From Escherichia phage vB-EcoP-XT73, in sequence record OR757436.1: 64,000 bases of DNA, one strand, 5' to 3'. How positions within the stretch are numbered: the first letter of the stretch is position 1; each line of letters begins with the position of its first letter. The notes beneath the pieces were generated by a model, which was given only the letters and a program-made list of their open reading frames with translations, ran no database searches and was not told where the DNA came from. Below are positions 45,458-51,825 of this stretch, one piece after another. A program made the translations under genes and the position numbers.

Positions 45458-45490
45458 ATAGCCCTTGTGTTTATCAGAGGGCTATGTGAG
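45458..45490 (+). other. conserved hairpin TATAGCC-N12-GGCTATGTGAG (copy 1 of 2)
   Basis: Same stem and GTGAG tail as the copy at 51706. Confidence 0.45.
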
Positions 45491-45514
45491 GGTGTTCCTC
45501 ATTAACTTATTAAT

Positions 45515-45565
45515 TCAGGCATATGCCACACCGCTAGGGAGAGCTTGCTCGAACATCCGGTGTTA
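45515..45565 (+). promoter_or_regulatory. conserved intergenic element GTATG..GCTAGGGAG..GAACATCCG (copy a)
   Basis: Similar sequence at 49595-49670 and 51770-51825. Confidence 0.4.
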
Positions 45566-45877
45566 GACTAAAACCTGTTAATTTTCGAAAGACTTTCTGA
45601 TATGTAGGGGTACATATCGGTTTGGGATTCAGGAGACTTCCTAGGGGTAGGGAGTCTTCACCAGTTTGTAGAGTAGGTGGCTCTATTGTAAGAGTCATCC
45701 GCTATATCAACTGGCAATAATGCCTCCACTAACAAAGAGAGATAGGTATGAAAGTATCAACCAAACGTATGAACCGCCCTGAACGTATGGATGCAGTAGC
45801 TAACGGTGCTCTGAAACTGGAAGGCTTCTGGATTCATGCAATGTCAGCCATCCGTAACAAGCAAGGTAATTGGACTT

Positions 45878-46087
45878 ATGCCGGTTAAAACAGCTCATGT
45901 GATAGGTATGCGAGAGATCATTCGCATTGCCTTGATGGAACACACTGATCGAAACATGCAACTAACGCAAATCTCTAAGTGTCTTAATTGCTCAAGAGAT
46001 ATGGCTAAGGAATTAATGTTCGCATTCCTTTATAATGCAGAAGATGGGTTTTTACAAAACCGTCTGCTTGGTTTAAAACAGAAATAA
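45878..46087 (+). CDS. hypothetical protein with HTH-like segment
   Basis: ATG 45878 within track ORF 45836..46087; followed by a terminator. Confidence 0.35.
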   Translation: MPVKTAHVIGMREIIRIALMEHTDRNMQLTQISKCLNCSRDMAKELMFAFLYNAEDGFLQNRLLGLKQK

Positions 46088-46096
46088 ATAAATAAA

Positions 46097-46128
46097 AGGC
46101 TGCCCAATCGGGTGGCCTTTGTTGTTTT
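46097..46128 (+). terminator. intrinsic terminator
   Basis: AGGCTGCCC-AATC-GGGTGGCCT then TTTGTTGTTTT. Confidence 0.55.
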
Positions 46129-46172
46129 AATTAAGGGACAGCTCTTACTTAAACTAACAAGAGGAAGCTCAA

Positions 46173-46349
46173 ATGTCTAAGCAAACAATCAAGAATACAC
46201 AAGCTGGTTACTCTTATGTTAACTCTCCTTGCTGTGGTGCTCGTGTTAATCTGGTTAAAGAAGAGGTTCGTATCGTTCAGCGTGGAGCTACTGTTGTTCG
46301 TTCATGCTGTGTCTGTGGTAATGACATCTTTATTAAAGGTAAAGTATGA
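46173..46349 (+). CDS. small zinc-ribbon protein (58 aa)
   Basis: AAGAGGAAG RBS; CC...CC.C pattern; ATGA overlap with the next gene. Confidence 0.4.
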   Translation: MSKQTIKNTQAGYSYVNSPCCGARVNLVKEEVRIVQRGATVVRSCCVCGNDIFIKGKV

Positions 46350-46570
46350 TTATCGTCCACTCTGAACCTAAAGATAATACTTTTGGTAGTCTACGTAATG
46401 GTGATGTATTCTCTCTAGAAATAGACGGGGATACAAAACCTCCTTTATACATGAAGGTTATGCACAGACATGCTATCTGTATAAAGAATCCTGAAACAAG
46501 ATTCACCTTTGATAGAACTTGCCCTGTCAAATACTATCAAGCTACCCTAAATGTTAGGAGAGTAGGATGA
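46346..46570 (+). CDS. small protein, paralogous family member
   Basis: ...LRNGDVFSLE... pattern. Confidence 0.45.
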   Translation: MIIVHSEPKDNTFGSLRNGDVFSLEIDGDTKPPLYMKVMHRHAICIKNPETRFTFDRTCPVKYYQATLNVRRVG

Positions 46571-46818
46571 AAAACTTCCAAGCTGCACCAATAACTAAAG
46601 CGATCGCAGTTAGTGATGTGATGATGACTGTTCCTCTGAACACTCGTTACATTGCAATTGACAAGATGGGTTATGTATGGGCTTGGAAGATTAAGCCTAG
46701 CTATAACGCATTGTTTGACGAGTTTGTTTGTACTGGTACTTACAGTCCTACATTCTTGGGTTTATTTGGAGAGTTTGAAGGTCAGTATAAAATCATTACT
46801 CTCCCTGCTTGTGTTTGA
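46567..46818 (+). CDS. hypothetical protein
   Basis: ATGA overlap with the upstream gene. Confidence 0.45.
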   Translation: MKNFQAAPITKAIAVSDVMMTVPLNTRYIAIDKMGYVWAWKIKPSYNALFDEFVCTGTYSPTFLGLFGEFEGQYKIITLPACV

Positions 46819-46825
46819 GGTTCTG

Positions 46826-47059
46826 GTGAAGACTAAAGAGGTTAAATATTTTGGTGAAGTTATTAAAATAGGTAACTCTATAAGATATTTAGCAACTGAT
46901 AGCAACGGCGAAGTGTATGGGTTTACTCATAAGCCAGAAATTCGTGGGTATGCTTGGGCACTCCCTTATGGAACTCCATTCGAGACTGGAGGGGCTGTTT
47001 ATCTTAATGATAATGGACCTCTGTTTGGGTGGAAAACATCTCTCGTTGAGGTGGTATAA
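46826..47059 (+). CDS. hypothetical protein
   Basis: GTG start after GAGG; weak similarity to the preceding protein. Confidence 0.35.
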   Translation: MKTKEVKYFGEVIKIGNSIRYLATDSNGEVYGFTHKPEIRGYAWALPYGTPFETGGAVYLNDNGPLFGWKTSLVEVV

Positions 47060-47061
47060 TT

Positions 47062-47226
47062 ATGTTCAAGTGGTTTAAATATCTCTTCCATCTCCATGAG
47101 TGGGAGACAATCAAAGCGGTTAGTTTAAATACATACAATGAGTTTGGTAAACTGGAAAGTACCGGAACTCGTTACATACTTCGATGTAAAACATGTGGTC
47201 ATATCACTAAGCGGGATATGATCTAA
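47062..47226 (+). CDS. small zinc-finger-like protein (54 aa)
   Basis: HEWETI...CKTCGH; a paralog-like protein follows. Confidence 0.35.
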   Translation: MFKWFKYLFHLHEWETIKAVSLNTYNEFGKLESTGTRYILRCKTCGHITKRDMI

Positions 47227-47234
47227 GAGGTGTT

Positions 47235-50015: not shown

Positions 50016-50023
50016 GAATCAAT

Positions 50024-50278
50024 ATGAAAGTTAACGAGTTAAATAGAACTACCAAGACTGTGAAACTCCATACTCTGAAGAAGGGTGATACATTCCGTTT
50101 AGAGGAGAATGGACCAATCCACATGGTCTGCACTGCGGCATCTACTAATTGGGTGGAAGTTGCACGAGATCGAGTAGTGTGTGTCAGGCTGGAAGATGGT
50201 AATCTGAGTGGTCCGGTCGAGAGGATTCCTGTTATCCCTGTTAAAGTTGAAGCTAACGTTATTAAGGGTTCTAAATGA
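50024..50278 (+). CDS. small protein, paralogous family member
   Basis: MKVNELNRTTKTVKLHTLKKGDTFRLEE pattern. Confidence 0.45.
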   Translation: MKVNELNRTTKTVKLHTLKKGDTFRLEENGPIHMVCTAASTNWVEVARDRVVCVRLEDGNLSGPVERIPVIPVKVEANVIKGSK

Positions 50279-50520
50279 AGATCATCCCAAAGATTAAAGA
50301 TAACACTGTTTCATTGGCTACAATTATTCCCGGAAACCCTTTCGTAGTTCAAAGAGGAACAGCATCCCCTCAGTATTACATCCGTGTCAATAATGTGTCC
50401 AACAAAATCTCTGTCGAAGAAGGTTGGATTACTATAGTCAATCTTCTTACTGGTGTATTAGGTGTTATGAAAAGTGATGCCCCAGTTGAAGTAATTCGTA
50501 TGTCAGTGGTTCAGGAGTAG
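50275..50520 (+). CDS. small protein, paralogous family member
   Basis: ATGA overlap with the upstream gene; same length class. Confidence 0.45.
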   Translation: MKIIPKIKDNTVSLATIIPGNPFVVQRGTASPQYYIRVNNVSNKISVEEGWITIVNLLTGVLGVMKSDAPVEVIRMSVVQE

Positions 50521-50525
50521 TGTAG

Positions 50526-50768
50526 ATGAGCACAATACATATCAAGGTCCATCACAAAGAAGAAAAGAAACTCTTTGTTAAAGATCTATCAATCGCTGAT
50601 ATCTTCACTTTAAAAGAAGATGATAATCAGGTCATCTATTTGATGATGCCTGTGACTGGAGGGTATCGAAGGGCTGTTTGTTTGGGTACAGGTGTACCTC
50701 GTCCTGTTGCTGATACTCTTGAAGTTGGTGAGAAGTTTAGTAAGGCTGAAATCATCTTAACTCCATAG
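50526..50768 (+). CDS. small protein, paralogous family member
   Basis: ...LFVKDLSIADIFTLKED... pattern. Confidence 0.45.
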   Translation: MSTIHIKVHHKEEKKLFVKDLSIADIFTLKEDDNQVIYLMMPVTGGYRRAVCLGTGVPRPVADTLEVGEKFSKAEIILTP

Positions 50769-50909
50769 GAAAACAAATGAGACGTAAAGCATATTCTTAT
50801 GACGATATGATTAACCAGAAAGGCTTCGGTCAACGACAGCCTGACGGTTCAATTATCTGGTTCGTAAACGGGCAGAAAAAGGTAGCTAAATAAGCCTTCT
50901 TCTCTCCTC

Positions 50910-50927
50910 CTTTTAGTACTATGACGC
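50910..50927 (+). promoter_or_regulatory. conserved 18-bp motif CTTTTAGTACTATGACGC (copy 2 of 2)
   Basis: Identical to 43873-43890; followed by an inverted repeat around an EcoRI site. Confidence 0.4.
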
Positions 50928-50998
50928 CTCTCTGTGGGCGGACCAATTTGCGTAGGGAATTCCCTCTACGCAGCCATAATTTTTAAGGAATTTCCCCT

Positions 50999-51232
50999 AT
51001 GTCTAAAGTAAGCGCAATTGATGCAATCCGTCAACCGTTCCAGTTCCAATCCAAATCAACCCAAACCTTCAGCGAGCCTAAGCAAATTCGCTTGGGTGGC
51101 ACAGAGAAGACTGTATTTGATCTGGCTAAAAACAAGAGCGTTACTGTAGTTGATGGTGGCACTCTGGTTAACGTTTCCCATCGTATCCGCACTGGCAAAA
51201 CTGCCAAAGATCGTGCTAAGAAAGGTGAATAA
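50999..51232 (+). CDS. hypothetical protein
   Basis: AAGGAA RBS. Confidence 0.45.
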   Translation: MSKVSAIDAIRQPFQFQSKSTQTFSEPKQIRLGGTEKTVFDLAKNKSVTVVDGGTLVNVSHRIRTGKTAKDRAKKGE

Positions 51233-51474
51233 TGAAAATAGGGCAACCAGCTAAGGATGTTCTAGCGAAGATTAGTGATATCTCTATTGGGGAGGTTTTC
51301 TCAGCAGAGCACTTTTCAAGTTACTACATGAAAATCCCTGACACTAAAGTAGAGGGTTGCATCACCCCCGCCAACGCAGTTAACCTGAACACAGGGCATT
51401 TGTCTGCATTCAAACCTGATTCACAGGTTACTGAAATCAAAGATGCCTACCTTGCCTTTGGTGGGGATAAATAG
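51232..51474 (+). CDS. small protein, paralogous family member
   Basis: ...ISDISIGEVFSAEH... pattern. Confidence 0.45.
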   Translation: MKIGQPAKDVLAKISDISIGEVFSAEHFSSYYMKIPDTKVEGCITPANAVNLNTGHLSAFKPDSQVTEIKDAYLAFGGDK

Positions 51475-51475
51475 T

Positions 51476-51691
51476 ATGATAGAACTTGTGTCTGTCGTTT
51501 ACAGATTACACTATCGTCTAGATAAAGGAAAATCCTATAAATGCAAGAGTAAGACAGGGAATCTGTGCTCTGTAGAGAATAACTCTGGTCAATGGGTGAA
51601 TGTTCCTTGTTGCTGGTTCAGGAAAGATTTGACTAGCAAAGAGATTGACGAAATTCTTAGTGATGATTTTGTAAAATCAGGTGATTTTTAG
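51476..51691 (+). CDS. hypothetical Cys-rich small protein
   Basis: ATG 51476 within track ORF 51443..51691. Confidence 0.35.
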   Translation: MIELVSVVYRLHYRLDKGKSYKCKSKTGNLCSVENNSGQWVNVPCCWFRKDLTSKEIDEILSDDFVKSGDF

Positions 51692-51705
51692 TTGTAGTAA
51701 CGCCT

Positions 51706-51735
51706 ATAGCCTTCCCTCCGGAGGGCTATGTGAGT
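51706..51735 (+). other. conserved hairpin TATAGCC-N12-GGCTATGTGAG (copy 2 of 2)
   Basis: Matches the copy at 45458. Confidence 0.45.
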
Positions 51736-51769
51736 TATTCTGACTCAACCAACCTAATCTTAATATATT

Positions 51770-51825
51770 TCCCGTATGGGGCCGATGCTAGGGCGAGGAA
51801 TAATCCTCAAACATCCGTCGGATAG
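51770..51825 (+). promoter_or_regulatory. conserved intergenic element (copy b)
   Basis: CCCGTATGGGG..GCTAGGGCG..AACATCCG. Confidence 0.4.

What the first reader, a model, noticed from the sequence alone, without database searches (positions are those of the whole stretch)
45458..51825. Conserved composite intergenic elements: hairpin TATAGCC-N12-GGCTATGTGAG plus a GTATG..GCTAGGG..AACATCCG element
Two intergenic regions (45458-45565, 51706-51825) carry the same hairpin with a GTGAG tail followed 25-35 nt later by a conserved box; a third region (49595-49670) carries the box alone. All lie 100-200 bp upstream of the next gene block. The hairpins lack U-tracts, so they are not classic terminators. 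The conservation suggests a shared regulatory unit, for example promoters for the phage sigma factor (5351-5998), RNA processing sites, or small structured RNAs.
Basis: seen in the sequence. Interest (0 to 1): 0.55.

Follow-up and report, generated by a model that had tools for sequence, protein, structure and literature searches.

The report
Structured intergenic RNA of phiEco32-like phages
Two of the three flagged intergenic regions are copies of one conserved, multi-hairpin RNA element in the early operon of phiEco32-like phages; it matches no described RNA family, is not a promoter for the phage sigma factor, and most likely controls how host RNA polymerase or RNases handle the early transcript.

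Summary
The window is a phiEco32-like (Kuravirus) coliphage. Regions 45449-45660 (R1) and 51697-51910 (R3) are paralogous copies of one element. The third region (49595-49670) is not a copy: covariance models give 5 bits or nothing, and it is absent from phiEco32.

The element folds on the sense strand. It has hairpin H1 (UAUAGCC..GGCUAU), a second hairpin using the GUGAG tail, a 3-bp mini-hairpin, and a 6-bp stem P1. P1 encloses an invariant internal loop (5' CUAGGGN / 5' NAACAUC) and hairpin P2, whose loop is hypervariable. About 97% of pair cells are paired, and 10-12 pairs show compensatory changes.

Every Kuravirus-like genome examined has two copies and Salmonella 7-11-like phages have one. 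Divergent members occur in Citrovirus-like phages. There is no Rfam hit and no match to HK022 put.

R3 also carries a double DnaA box nearly identical to the ChIP-verified site upstream of E. coli nrdD. It ends in a strong intrinsic terminator 19 nt before the next gene.

The gp36 promoter motif is absent, and the sigma-70-like hexamers covary for pairing rather than for promoter identity.

Best reading, inferred and not shown: a cis-acting RNA that controls read-through or termination of early transcription. Processing/stability and trans-acting RNA roles remain open.

The parts
45446..45448 (+). R1: TAA stop codon of the upstream ORF (45194-45448), inside the conserved GUAAC that starts the element
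   Evidence: GTAAC (GTGAC in two phages) precedes hairpin H1 in every copy, whatever the upstream gene is
45457..45485 (+). R1 hairpin H1 (UAUAGCCCUUG..CAGAGGGCUAU); the stem base is conserved in sequence and the upper stem varies
   Evidence: 99% of cells paired, U.G pairs present, 2 pairs with compensatory change
45486..45502 (+).
   Evidence: the equivalent hairpin in R3 covaries
45518..45527 (+).
   Evidence: GC/CG swaps at two of three pairs, 100% paired
45528..45563 (+). R1 core: P1 (ACACCG/CGGUGU) enclosing the invariant internal loop CUAGGGA / GAACAUC and hairpin P2 (GAG-CUUG-CUC)
   Evidence: core model 56.7 bits, E=6e-11
45597..45620 (+). R1 hairpin H5' with an invariant GGGG apical loop (..AUGUA-GGGG-UACAU..)
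   Evidence: RNAalifold on 13 R1 copies; AUGUA/UACAU in some phages is ACGUA/UACGU in others
45632..45659 (+). R1 terminal hairpin T' (GGAGACUUCC-UAGGGGUA-GGGAGUCUUC), followed by ACCAGUUUGU; there is no proper U-tract
   Evidence: the stem differs between lineages (GGAGAU..AGGUCU; GAGAAC..GUUCUC) while the UAGGGGUA loop is invariant
51697..51701 (+). R3: GUAAC with an in-frame back-up TAA; the upstream ORF's own TAG is at 51689-51691
51705..51730 (+). R3 hairpin H1 (UAUAGCCUUCC-CUCC-GGAGGGCUAUG)
   Evidence: 98% paired; other phages have a C(UUCG)G tetraloop here
51731..51747 (+). R3 hairpin H1b (UGAGU-UAUUCUG-ACUCA)
   Evidence: U-A in 9 sequences, C-G in 3
51750..51768 (+). R3 helix P0, 5' strand (AACCU..UCUUAA..AUAU); it pairs with 51826-51844 and closes a three-way junction
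   Evidence: 16 pairs, 89-97% paired per segment, 4 pairs with compensatory change, kept in 7-11 and SNUABM-01 with different sequence
51771..51780 (+). R3 mini-hairpin H2 (CCC-GUAU-GGG)
51782..51821 (+). R3 core: P1 (CCGAUG/CGUCGG), invariant loop CUAGGGC / AAACAUC, and P2 (GAGGA-AUAA-UCCUC)
   Evidence: (77.9 bits, E=5e-16)
51826..51844 (+). R3 helix P0, 3' strand (AUAU-UUUAAGAGCAGGUUA)
51831..51850 (.). R3 double DnaA box: weak box TTAAGAGCA, spacer GG, consensus box TTATCCACA; DNA-level, R3 only
   Evidence: the ChIP-seq DnaA site upstream of E. coli nrdD is tTTAAGAACAggTTATCCACAg (PMC11317965)
51851..51866 (+). R3 hairpin H5 (GAUAUU-GGGU-AAUAUC)
   Evidence: 95% paired but no compensatory change; absent in 7-11
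51885..51909 (+). R3 intrinsic terminator: hairpin 51885-51903, U6 tract 51904-51909, with an A-tract upstream. The next start codon is at 51929
   Evidence: 100% paired, G.U/A-U and U.G/C-G/G-C variation; annotated as terminator in 7-11 and SU7

Best explanation
R1 and R3 are two paralogous copies of a previously undescribed structured RNA module. It is transcribed as part of the early, host-sigma-70-dependent polycistronic mRNA.

Each copy starts at the stop codon of the preceding ORF. It then folds into hairpin H1, hairpin H1b, and a core made of mini-hairpin H2 abutting stem P1. P1 carries the invariant internal loop CUAGGGN/NAACAUC and is capped by P2. In R3 a long AU-rich helix (P0) closes the core into a three-way junction. 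Each copy ends in one or two hairpins with GGG(G) loops just upstream of the next gene. In R3 the last hairpin is a strong intrinsic terminator only 19 nt before the next start codon.

Proposed mechanism (inferred, not shown): the folded core acts in cis on the transcribing host RNA polymerase, or on a conserved host elongation factor. It thereby sets how much transcription passes the terminator-like hairpin at the end of the module. It would be an antitermination or attenuation checkpoint between blocks of early genes. In R3, DnaA bound to the adjacent double box could add a host-state input.
For: Shown:
- Two copies are highly significant and homologous along their length.
- The structure is supported by RNAalifold and pair counts. 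Core plus H1: 97.1% of cells paired, 10 pairs with compensatory change, against 33-49% paired when partners are slid. Full-length R3: 97.3% paired, 12 compensatory pairs, against 39-48% when slid.
- G.U pairs at several positions place the fold on the sense strand.
- The P2 loop varies freely in sequence and in length (not in multiples of three) while the internal-loop bases never change in Kuravirus-like and 7-11-like phages, so the region is not coding.
- Copy number and spread: two copies in every Kuravirus, Suseptimavirus and Nieuwekanaalvirus genome examined, and one in 7-11, SE131 and pSal-SNUABM-01. In 7-11 the intergenic DNA is about 70% identical to R3 although the flanking protein is only 38% identical.
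- A canonical core with a fourth P1 sequence (AUAGCG/CGCUAU) occurs in a Citrovirus-like phage contig (62.6 bits). A looser version that keeps the H1 sequence occurs in Klebsiella Citroviruses.

For the mechanism (inference):
- Unpaired bases that stay invariant across families whose proteins have diverged widely point to a conserved host partner.
- The R3 terminator lies between all candidate promoters and gene 90, with only 19 nt to the ATG. The gene 90-69 block therefore needs read-through.
- Early promoters lie 4-11 kb upstream (PMC4281155).
- For 7-11 the literature states that early transcripts are long polycistrons and that an antitermination strategy 'remains to be defined' (PMC8948821).
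- In KpnP_VR7901 the element's own terminal hairpin is the first terminator-like site after the early promoter cluster.
- Having two sequence-related copies per genome parallels putL/putR (PMC9378689).
Against: - No transcript data exist. The function rests on position and anatomy only.
- Three terminator-like hairpins (42453, 43936, 44021) lie between the early promoters and R1, so R1 cannot be the first antitermination site.
- The element is not close to a promoter, unlike putL.
- It has no sequence or structure similarity to HK022 put.
- No convincing alternative antiterminator pairing with the R3 terminator was found (at most 6 bp, not conserved in 7-11).
- R1 and the Citrovirus copies end in hairpins with only weak U-runs.
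- In Klyazma and Asterion the CUAGGG loop is altered or partly deleted.
- The independent evolutionary events behind the covariation are few, about five or six lineages.
Confidence: 0.35

Rival explanations
1. mRNA punctuation. The module is a processing and stability element of the polycistronic early mRNA. H1 sits directly after the stop codon and would protect the upstream cistron from 3' exonucleases after endonucleolytic cleavage in the AU-rich linkers. Heavy folding would also keep Rho off a 230-300 nt untranslated stretch. This would be functionally like the RNase III sites between T7 early genes, or REP and CUUCGG hairpins.
For: - H1 starts 3-8 nt after a stop codon in every copy regardless of the upstream gene.
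- Several phages have a C(UUCG)G tetraloop in H1, a class of hairpin reported to stabilise phage mRNAs (PMC8948821).
- Folding energy z-scores are -4.9 (R3) and -4.0 (R1).
- AU-rich single-stranded linkers lie between the hairpins.
Against: - Simple stabiliser hairpins do not need invariant internal-loop bases, a three-way junction, or conservation across three phage families.
- The stems are too short for RNase III.
- Most other intergenic junctions of the same operon lack the element.
Confidence: 0.25
2. Trans-acting non-coding RNA. The module, above all R3 which ends in a terminator with a U-tail, would be released from the early transcript as a stable RNA. It would then sequester a host protein through its UAGGG(G) motifs or base-pair with host mRNA. 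The R3 segment 51826-51866 is nearly perfectly complementary to the 5'UTR of E. coli nrdD, ending 1 nt from its Shine-Dalgarno sequence.
For: - R3 has a structured body plus an A-tract, hairpin and U6 3' end.
- G-rich apical or internal loops recur in R1, R3, KpnP_VR7901 and L157: CUAGGG, GUAGGGGUAC, CUAGGGGUAG, UUGGGU.
- 36 of 42 nt (29 of 31 in the centre) match the strand antisense to the nrdD leader in 399 E. coli genomes.
Against: - No promoter of its own was found.
- The nrdD similarity coincides with a DNA-level double DnaA box, which explains at least its centre.
- R1 has no host match.
- 7-11 keeps only the consensus box.
- The complementary segment is largely paired inside the element (P0, H5).
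Confidence: 0.15
3. Metabolite- or signal-sensing riboswitch-like leader. The junction and internal loop would form a ligand pocket and the terminal hairpin would be the expression platform.
For: - The architecture resembles an aptamer: covarying stems, a hypervariable terminal loop, invariant junction and loop bases, followed by a terminator.
- There is no Rfam match, so it would be a new class.
Against: - No conserved switching (antiterminator) helix was found.
- The downstream genes are unrelated between copies.
- Only the R3 terminal hairpin is a strong terminator.
Confidence: 0.07
4. DNA-level element: a DnaA-dependent site (origin, DnaA titration or roadblock) or a repeated cassette that mediates recombination between early-gene modules, like the promoter-early stem-loops of T4-type phages.
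For: - R3 carries a double DnaA box nearly identical to a ChIP-verified one.
- The consensus box is kept in 7-11-like phages.
- Gene content next to the elements varies between phages, and EcoN5 has a tandem duplication bounded by R3 copies.
Against: - R1 and the Citrovirus members lack DnaA boxes.
- G.U pairs and strand-specific covariation show selection on an RNA fold, not on duplex DNA.
- Repeats that serve only recombination would not keep compensatory changes.
Confidence: 0.1
5. Promoters, either for the phage sigma factor gp36 or for host sigma-70.
For: Intergenic position upstream of gene blocks, and one 9-of-12 sigma-70-like site at 51740-51769.
Against: - There is no TAATGTATA-like element within either copy.
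- Published gp36 promoters are elsewhere (PMC8948821).
- The '-35' hexamer covaries to preserve hairpin H1b.
- The hexamers are not conserved in R1, SU7 or 7-11.
- The site count is below shuffle expectation.
Confidence: 0.03

Closest known systems
HK022 putL/putR antiterminator RNAs
   Same: - Phage-encoded, sense-strand, cis-acting RNA in early transcripts made by host RNA polymerase.
- Two sequence-related copies per genome.
- Two adjacent stem-loops separated by 0-1 nt, the second with a functionally critical internal loop of non-canonical pairs.
- Located upstream of terminators (PMC9378689).
   Different: - No sequence or structure match: the best hit of the model on the HK022 early region is 8.4 bits, E=0.8.
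- The first stem here is only 3 bp.
- The element is 4-11 kb from the promoters rather than 0-270 nt.
- The module is about three times longer, with extra hairpins.
- Activity is untested.
Lambda-type nut sites (boxA + boxB) and rrn boxA
   Same: - A linear U/A-rich motif lies directly upstream of a small hairpin. 7-11 has UCUUUUUAAACAAUU-GCCGUAUGGC and KpnP_VR7901 has CCUUUUAAACAAU-GCUAAAGC; the rrn boxA, recalled from memory, is UGCUCUUUAACAA.
- Located in early operons that contain terminators.
   Different: - The boxA resemblance needs insertions and is weak in the Kuravirus copies.
- In R3 that stretch is the 5' strand of helix P0.
- No N-like protein is known.
- H2 has a 4-nt loop, not a GNRA-like pentaloop.
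- This is a lead only and was not tested.
Riboswitch / transcription-attenuator leaders
   Same: A structured domain with invariant junction bases and covarying stems, followed by an intrinsic terminator immediately upstream of a gene (R3).
   Different: - No ligand and no conserved alternative pairing.
- It lies between cistrons of an operon, starting at a stop codon.
- The downstream genes are unrelated.
- It matches no Rfam family.
Intercistronic stabiliser and processing hairpins (T7 RNase III sites, T4 CUUCGG hairpins, REP elements)
   Same: Repeated hairpins between early cistrons, and UUCG tetraloops in H1 of some phages.
   Different: Much more complex, with sequence-invariant unpaired bases conserved across phage families, and stems too short for RNase III.
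Double DnaA box upstream of E. coli nrdD (applies to 51831-51850 only)
   Same: TTAAGAGCA-GG-TTATCCACA-G against TTAAGAACA-GG-TTATCCACA-G. The flanks also match, 36 of 42 overall.
   Different: It lies in a phage intergenic region on the strand antisense to the nrdD orientation. DnaA binding has not been tested. It is present only in the R3 copy, and 7-11 keeps only the consensus box.

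Membership tests
gp36 (phage sigma) promoters of phiEco32 | Single element tAATGTAtA 6-8 nt upstream of the transcription start | tested here: not met
   no match with up to 1 mismatch within 45449-45747 or 51692-51928. Exact matches lie at 3453, 3525, 12798 and 27859.
gp36 (phage sigma) promoters of phiEco32 | Location upstream of middle or late genes (6, 13, 26, 40, 58, 68) | tested here: not met
   the elements lie between phi32_113/112 and phi32_91/90, in the early block (PMC8948821, PMC4281155).
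Sigma-70 promoter | Conserved -35 and -10 hexamers with 16-18 nt spacing | tested here: not met
   one 9-of-12 site in R3, none in R1, and fewer sites than in shuffles. The hexamers are not conserved, and the '-35' covaries as a stem arm.
Intrinsic terminator (for the TATAGCC..GGCTAT hairpin H1) | GC-rich hairpin followed directly by a U-tract | tested here: not met
   H1 is followed by GUGAG and a second hairpin, and one search does not list it.
Intrinsic terminator (for 51885-51909) | GC-rich hairpin followed directly by a U-tract | tested here: met
   a 6-7 bp stem with a UUCG-type loop, U6, and an upstream A-tract. It is conserved in Kuravirus-like and 7-11-like phages and annotated as a terminator in 7-11 and SU7. 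Termination activity itself was not tested.
HK022 put RNA | Sequence and structure similarity to putL/putR | tested here: not met
   the composite model run without filters over HK022 24000-40751 gives a best hit of 8.4 bits, E=0.8.
HK022 put RNA | Suppresses termination in cis by binding the RNA polymerase beta' zinc-binding domain | not testable with these tools
   Needs in vitro transcription or genetics.
Lambda nut / rrn boxA | boxA consensus able to bind NusB-NusE, next to a boxB hairpin | tested here: inconclusive
   By eye only: partial resemblance in 7-11 and KpnP_VR7901, poor in the Kuravirus copies. The consensus was recalled from memory.
Any Rfam 15 family (riboswitches, ribozymes, sRNAs) | Covariance-model score at or near the gathering threshold | tested here: not met
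   only the tRNA-Arg passes in the whole window; at E<=10 only chance-level hits of at most 19 bits against thresholds of 38-80.
Structured RNA (general criterion) | Compensatory base changes preserving helices, on one strand | tested here: met
   97% paired, 10-12 pairs with changes on both sides, against 33-49% paired in slid controls. A fourth P1 variant occurs in L157.
Double DnaA box (high-occupancy DnaA site) | A consensus TTATCCACA with a second degenerate 9-mer 2-3 bp away in the same orientation | tested here: met
   51831-51839, GG, then 51842-51850. It is 19 of 20 identical to the nrdD site in PMC11317965 Table 1. Binding was not tested.
Protein-coding small ORF | Conserved reading frame | tested here: not met
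   only ORFs of 20-54 codons. The ATG in H2 gives 3 codons in R1, 15 in 7-11 and 28 in R3. P2 length differences are not multiples of 3.

The most novel reading that the evidence does not exclude
The element is a new class of nascent-RNA regulator that acts without a dedicated phage protein. Its invariant CUAGGGN/NAACAUC loop and GGGG loops would bind host RNA polymerase or a conserved elongation or termination factor, making early transcription complexes read through intrinsic terminators. That would be the undefined antitermination strategy postulated for 7-11 and phiEco32-like phages. It would be shared by three families of enterobacterial podophages that encode their own sigma factor, and in R3 it would be coupled to host DnaA occupancy.
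Probability: 0.25. Interest if true: 0.85.

Novelty: new variant of a known kind. Interest (0 to 1): 0.62.

Why it matters
phiEco32 and 7-11 are model systems for how phages take over host RNA polymerase (gp36, gp79). How their 25-40 kb early operons pass many intrinsic terminators is an acknowledged gap (PMC8948821).

This element is the most conserved non-coding sequence of the early region. It is shared at about 70% identity by phages whose neighbouring proteins are under 40% identical. It gives a concrete, mutable candidate of 45-130 nt for that function. If it acts on RNA polymerase, it would be only the second class of protein-independent antiterminator RNA in phages after put.

Whatever its role, it is a well-supported new RNA motif for phage genome annotation. 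In several deposited genomes it is currently annotated as 'hypothetical protein'. The embedded nrdD-type double DnaA box also suggests an unexplored link between the host replication initiator and phage early gene expression.

Tried and rejected
1. Third copy at 49595-49670: rejected.
2. gp36 and sigma-70 promoters: rejected.
3. Rfam membership: none at gathering thresholds or at E<=10.
4. put homology: none.
5. Loose pattern GCTAGGG-N(8-30)-AACATCCG in IMG/VR: 120+ hits, nearly all chance. The core model finds nothing real among 100 of them.
6. Tighter pattern in IMG/VR, GTDB genomes and metagenomes: it returned known relatives plus one truly divergent member, L157. The other non-relatives lack P1 and H1.
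7. Privateervirus, Libingvirus, Crifsvirus, CVT22 and Pecta: no copy in the early regions fetched.
8. A protein partner encoded nearby: the neighbours are unannotated small proteins, apart from a double-HTH, sigma-region-4-like protein (phi32_99 homologue). There is no RNA-binding domain.
9. Conserved flanking genes: none, upstream or downstream.
10. Extra helix pairing the stop-codon region with the sequence after H1. In R3 the single apparent compensation (EP335) is equally explained by H1b, and SU7 breaks the helix. In R1, AACAYC/GRUGUU co-varies (C-G, U-A, U.G) but rests on about two events. Left as tentative.
11. Antiterminator pairing between the P0 3' strand and the terminator 5' arm: at most 6 bp and not conserved, so dropped.
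12. RNAduplex of whole R3 against the nrdD leader: uninformative, no better than shuffles because long sequences allow huge loops. The direct complementarity is read from the alignment instead.
13. The two key phiEco32 papers (PMC3275717, PMC2587145) are not held. Promoter positions were taken from secondary sources.

Full report
**Identity of the window**

Megablast of 45000-52500 finds 172 phage records, led by Escherichia phages XT18, NJ01, SU10 and phiEco32. The window is therefore a phiEco32-like podophage (Kuravirus, Gordonclarkvirinae).

In phiEco32 coordinates the three flagged regions fall in these intergenic gaps:
- R1 (45458-45565): between phi32_113 and phi32_112.
- R2 (49595-49670): between phi32_101 and phi32_100.
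- R3 (51706-51825): between phi32_91 and phi32_90.

All three lie in the block that the literature assigns to the early class, transcribed by host sigma-70 holoenzyme. The phage sigma gp36 uses the single element tAATGTAtA upstream of genes 6, 13, 26, 40, 58 and 68 (PMC8948821; PMC4331800; PMC4281155).

**Check of the observation**

GGCTATGTGAG occurs exactly twice in the window. GCTAGGG-N(10-35)-AACATCCG also occurs exactly twice, with none expected in shuffles. Both occurrences follow a TATAGCC..GGCTAT inverted repeat. R1 and R3 are therefore real and related.

R2 shares only two short words. GCTAGGG alone is at chance frequency, and R2 lacks AACATCCG. A covariance model of the composite element (model R1, built from 12 copies) scores R3 at 131.9 bits and R1 at 104.8 bits, and finds nothing at R2 at E<=10. 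A model of the core alone (model R2), run without filters on 701 nt around R2, gives 5.1 bits. phiEco32 has unrelated sequence at this position. The region is a mosaic in which only a few phages share the R2 stretch. The 'third copy' is rejected.

**Anatomy of the element**

Reading the copies side by side and running RNAalifold gives one architecture.

1. The element begins at GUAAC. Its UAA is the stop codon of the upstream ORF in R1 and an in-frame back-up stop in R3. It is UGA in KBNP1711 and EP335.
2. Hairpin H1 has a sequence-conserved base (UAUAGCC/GGCUAU) and a variable, compensated upper stem. Several phages have a C(UUCG)G loop.
3. Its arms are GAGG/CCUC in R1, GAGU/ACUC in R3, GAGC/GCUC in SU7-type phages, and GAGUUA/UAACUC in 7-11.
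4. A 3-bp mini-hairpin H2 follows: GGC-AUAU-GCC, CCC-GUAU-GGG, GCC-GUAU-GGC or GCC-AUAU-GGC.
5. Abutting H2 is the 6-bp stem P1. Its variants are ACACCG/CGGUGU, UCACCG/CGGUGA, CCGAUG/CGUCGG and UCGGUG/CGCCGA.
6. P1 encloses an invariant internal loop, 5' CUAGGGN and 5' NAACAUC.
7. The loop is capped by hairpin P2, whose GAG/CUC base is fixed. Its apical loop differs in almost every phage, in sequence and in length.

Pair counts on the model-based alignment of 29 copies (25 distinct) give 97.1% of cells paired and 10 of 25 pairs with changes on both sides. When the 3' partners are slid by 1-3 columns, 33-49% are paired. No shuffle reaches the observed covariation score.

U.G pairs at five positions would be A.C mismatches on the other strand. 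The folded molecule is therefore the sense-strand RNA. This argues against a DNA cruciform, a protein-binding inverted repeat or an antisense transcript.

Folding energies are well below shuffles: z = -4.9 for R3 and -4.0 for R1, against -3.3 for the antisense strand of R3.

In R3 a long AU-rich helix P0 (51750-51768 with 51826-51844) closes H2 and P1-P2 into a three-way junction. It is kept in 7-11 and pSal-SNUABM-01 with different sequence. After it come a short hairpin H5 (GAUAUU-GGGU-AAUAUC) and an intrinsic terminator at 51885-51909, which has an upstream A-tract and a U6 tract.

A hand-specified structure of 57 pairs on 12 diverse R3 sequences gives 97.3% paired and 12 pairs with compensatory change. 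Slid controls give 39-48%.

R1 has in parallel positions two hairpins with invariant GGGG apical loops and covarying stems..GUA-GGGG-UAC.. at 45597-45620 and ..CUA-GGGG-UAG.. at 45632-45659. The second is not followed by a U-tract. A P0-like helix could not be established for R1.

Neither copy holds a conserved ORF. The P2 length differences break any reading frame.

**Distribution**

Blastn finds R1 in 98 and R3 in 102 phage records. All Kuravirus, Suseptimavirus and Nieuwekanaalvirus genomes fetched have both copies. EcoN5 has R3 twice, bounding a tandem duplication.

Salmonella phages 7-11, SE131 and pSal-SNUABM-01 (Moazamivirus) have one copy, syntenic with R3 and about 70% identical in DNA. 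The adjacent conserved protein (phi32_92 / gp113) is only 38% identical.

The models find no copy in the early regions of Privateervirus, Libingvirus or Crifsvirus phages.

Pattern scans of IMG/VR, GTDB genomes and metagenomes, filtered with the core model, returned Kuravirus-like and 7-11-like contigs. They also returned one divergent member, L157 3082-3140 at 62.6 bits. That contig is labelled a Flavobacterium MAG but is a Citrovirus-like phage. It has a fourth P1 sequence (AUAGCG/CGCUAU), H2 as CCC-AUAU-GGG, and the same CUAGGGC / AAACAUC loops, behind a different first hairpin.

Klebsiella Citroviruses KpnP_VR7901, Klyazma and Asterion carry a looser version (17.5 bits, E=0.025). It keeps H1 almost to the letter (UAUAGCUCA..UGGGCUAUGUGGGAG), an H1b, P1 as CAGCG/CGCUG, CUAGGGA, a longer P2, and a terminal hairpin with a GUAGGGGUA loop whose stem covaries. 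In Klyazma and Asterion, however, the CUAGGG loop is altered or partly deleted. CVT22 and Pecta lack the element.

Kuravirus and 7-11 encode their own sigma factor, CVT22 has an annotated one, and all three groups carry the amidoligase gene cluster.

**What the element is not**

- No Rfam 15 family matches, at gathering thresholds or at E<=10.
- The composite model finds nothing in the HK022 early region that holds putL and putR.
- There is no gp36 promoter element within either copy.
- The one sigma-70-like site in R3 has a '-35' that is the 3' arm of H1b and covaries for pairing. It is absent from R1, SU7 and 7-11.

**The DnaA box in R3**

R3 contains one of two perfect TTATCCACA boxes in the window, at 51842-51850. 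A search of 5,426 E. coli genomes with R3 hit one place in 399 of them, 36 of 42 identical, with 29 of 31 in the centre. The place lies directly upstream of nrdD, at -14 to -55 from the start codon.

A ChIP-seq study lists exactly this site, tTTAAGAACAggTTATCCACAg, as a DnaA-bound 'double DnaA box' (PMC11317965). R3 reads tTTAAGAGCAggTTATCCACAg.

R3 thus carries a host-type high-occupancy DnaA site on the DNA. It overlaps the 3' strand of P0 on the RNA. Because of its orientation, the R3 RNA is also about 38 nt complementary to the nrdD 5'UTR.

7-11-like phages keep only the consensus 9-mer. R1 has no E. coli match. I could not fetch a Salmonella nrdD leader to test host-matched complementarity.

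**Context for the mechanism**

The early promoters of the window are a cluster at 40128 (a perfect TTGACA-16-TATAAT), 40581 and 41407. This matches the 'three promoters in the spacer' described for phiEco32 and SU10 (PMC4281155).

Downstream on the same strand there are terminator-like hairpins at 42453, 43936 and 44021, all before R1. Further ones lie at 46095, 49267 and 50948, and the R3 terminator is at 51885.

The R3 terminator is 19 nt from the start codon of the gene 90 homologue, so no promoter fits between them. Expression of the following genes therefore depends on read-through. For 7-11, early transcription starts from two promoters at the genome end and runs as long polycistrons. 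Its authors state that an antitermination strategy 'remains to be defined' (PMC8948821).

In KpnP_VR7901 the element lies 1.5-2 kb after a cluster of sigma-70-like promoters. Its own terminal hairpin is the first terminator-like site downstream of that cluster.

The flanking genes are unrelated between copies and between phage groups. The neighbouring proteins show no RNA-binding domain.

**Interpretation**

Shown:
- This is a conserved, sense-strand, multi-helix RNA module.
- It has two copies per Kuravirus genome and relatives in two other phage families.
- It is not coding, not a known RNA family, and not a promoter.

Inferred:
- The unpaired bases are invariant across phages whose proteins have diverged widely. 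The partner is therefore more likely a conserved host machine than a phage protein.
- The module sits between a stop codon and a terminator-like hairpin that precedes the next cistron, in operons that must pass terminators.
- I therefore rank a cis-acting control of elongation or termination (put-like in logic, not in ancestry) first, at about 0.35.
- A processing or stability role comes second (about 0.25). It is favoured by H1's position and its UUCG loops.
- A trans-acting RNA is possible (about 0.15), either as a protein sponge through the UAGGG(G) motifs or as an antisense RNA to nrdD.
- A riboswitch-like sensor (about 0.07) and a purely DNA-level role (about 0.1) are not excluded.

Main weaknesses of the first choice:
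- Terminators precede R1.
- No alternative pairing explains a switch.
- Only R3 has a strong terminator.
- The covariation rests on roughly five or six independent lineages.

**Verdict**

The promoter interpretation is not supported; the 'structured RNA / regulatory unit' alternative is. The element is a new RNA motif of a known general kind, phage cis-regulatory RNA. It is of moderate-to-high interest and directly testable with standard transcription assays.

Noticed in passing
window 51826-51870; L181 1501-1542: The R3 segment holding the double DnaA box is 36 of 42 identical to the E. coli nrdD upstream region, a ChIP-verified DnaA site. It lies on the strand antisense to nrdD mRNA, so the phage RNA would be complementary to the nrdD 5'UTR right up to its Shine-Dalgarno sequence.
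   Followed up: partly
window 49056-49710: The long intergenic region containing the rejected 'third copy' is a mosaic. 49465-49540 is about 90% identical to N4-like (Gamaleyavirus) and Klebsiella phages, and 49397-49455 matches jumbo phages. One matching record annotates a tRNA pseudogene there, and some Kuraviruses carry an HNH endonuclease gene at this spot.
   Followed up: partly
window 39900-41520: A non-coding stretch of about 1.4 kb holds the early promoter cluster: a perfect TTGACA-16-TATAAT at 40128, with further sites at 40581 and 41407. It lies ahead of the phi32_124 homologue and is followed by strong terminator-like hairpins at 42453, 43936 and 44021. If antitermination exists, a loading site could also lie here.
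   Followed up: no
L128 10484-10610 and 12002-12128 (phage EcoN5): EcoN5 carries two identical R3 copies bounding a tandem duplication of about 1.5 kb containing the gene 90/89 and 93/91 homologues. This suggests the elements can serve as recombination substrates.
   Followed up: no
window 25769-26201: Four tandem copies of a 90-nt period, three of them 100% identical over 163 nt, lie inside the minus-strand structural-gene block.
   Followed up: no
window 47781-47855: tRNA-Arg (anticodon TCT) lies between the two copies of the element. It is conserved in most relatives.
   Followed up: no
window 45194-45448, 50526-50768, 51232-51474; L002 5771-5998: Several small early proteins are paralogues (MKI...G[DE]VF...Y.MK; phrog_12612 / phrog_7431). 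Members of this family often sit directly upstream of the RNA element, in R1 of the window and in 7-11 gp112.
   Followed up: no
L146 8017-8118; L147 8019-8287; L148 8019-8287; L260 174-332: Several deposited genomes annotate 'hypothetical protein' CDSs inside R1 or its Citrovirus counterpart. The covariation pattern indicates these are probably false gene calls over a structured RNA.
   Followed up: partly
L002 6062-6080; L259 7055-7070: A boxA-like linear motif lies directly upstream of mini-hairpin H2 in distant members (UCUUUUUAAACAAUU and CCUUUUAAACAAU). It resembles the rrn/lambda boxA recalled from memory. It was not tested.
   Followed up: no
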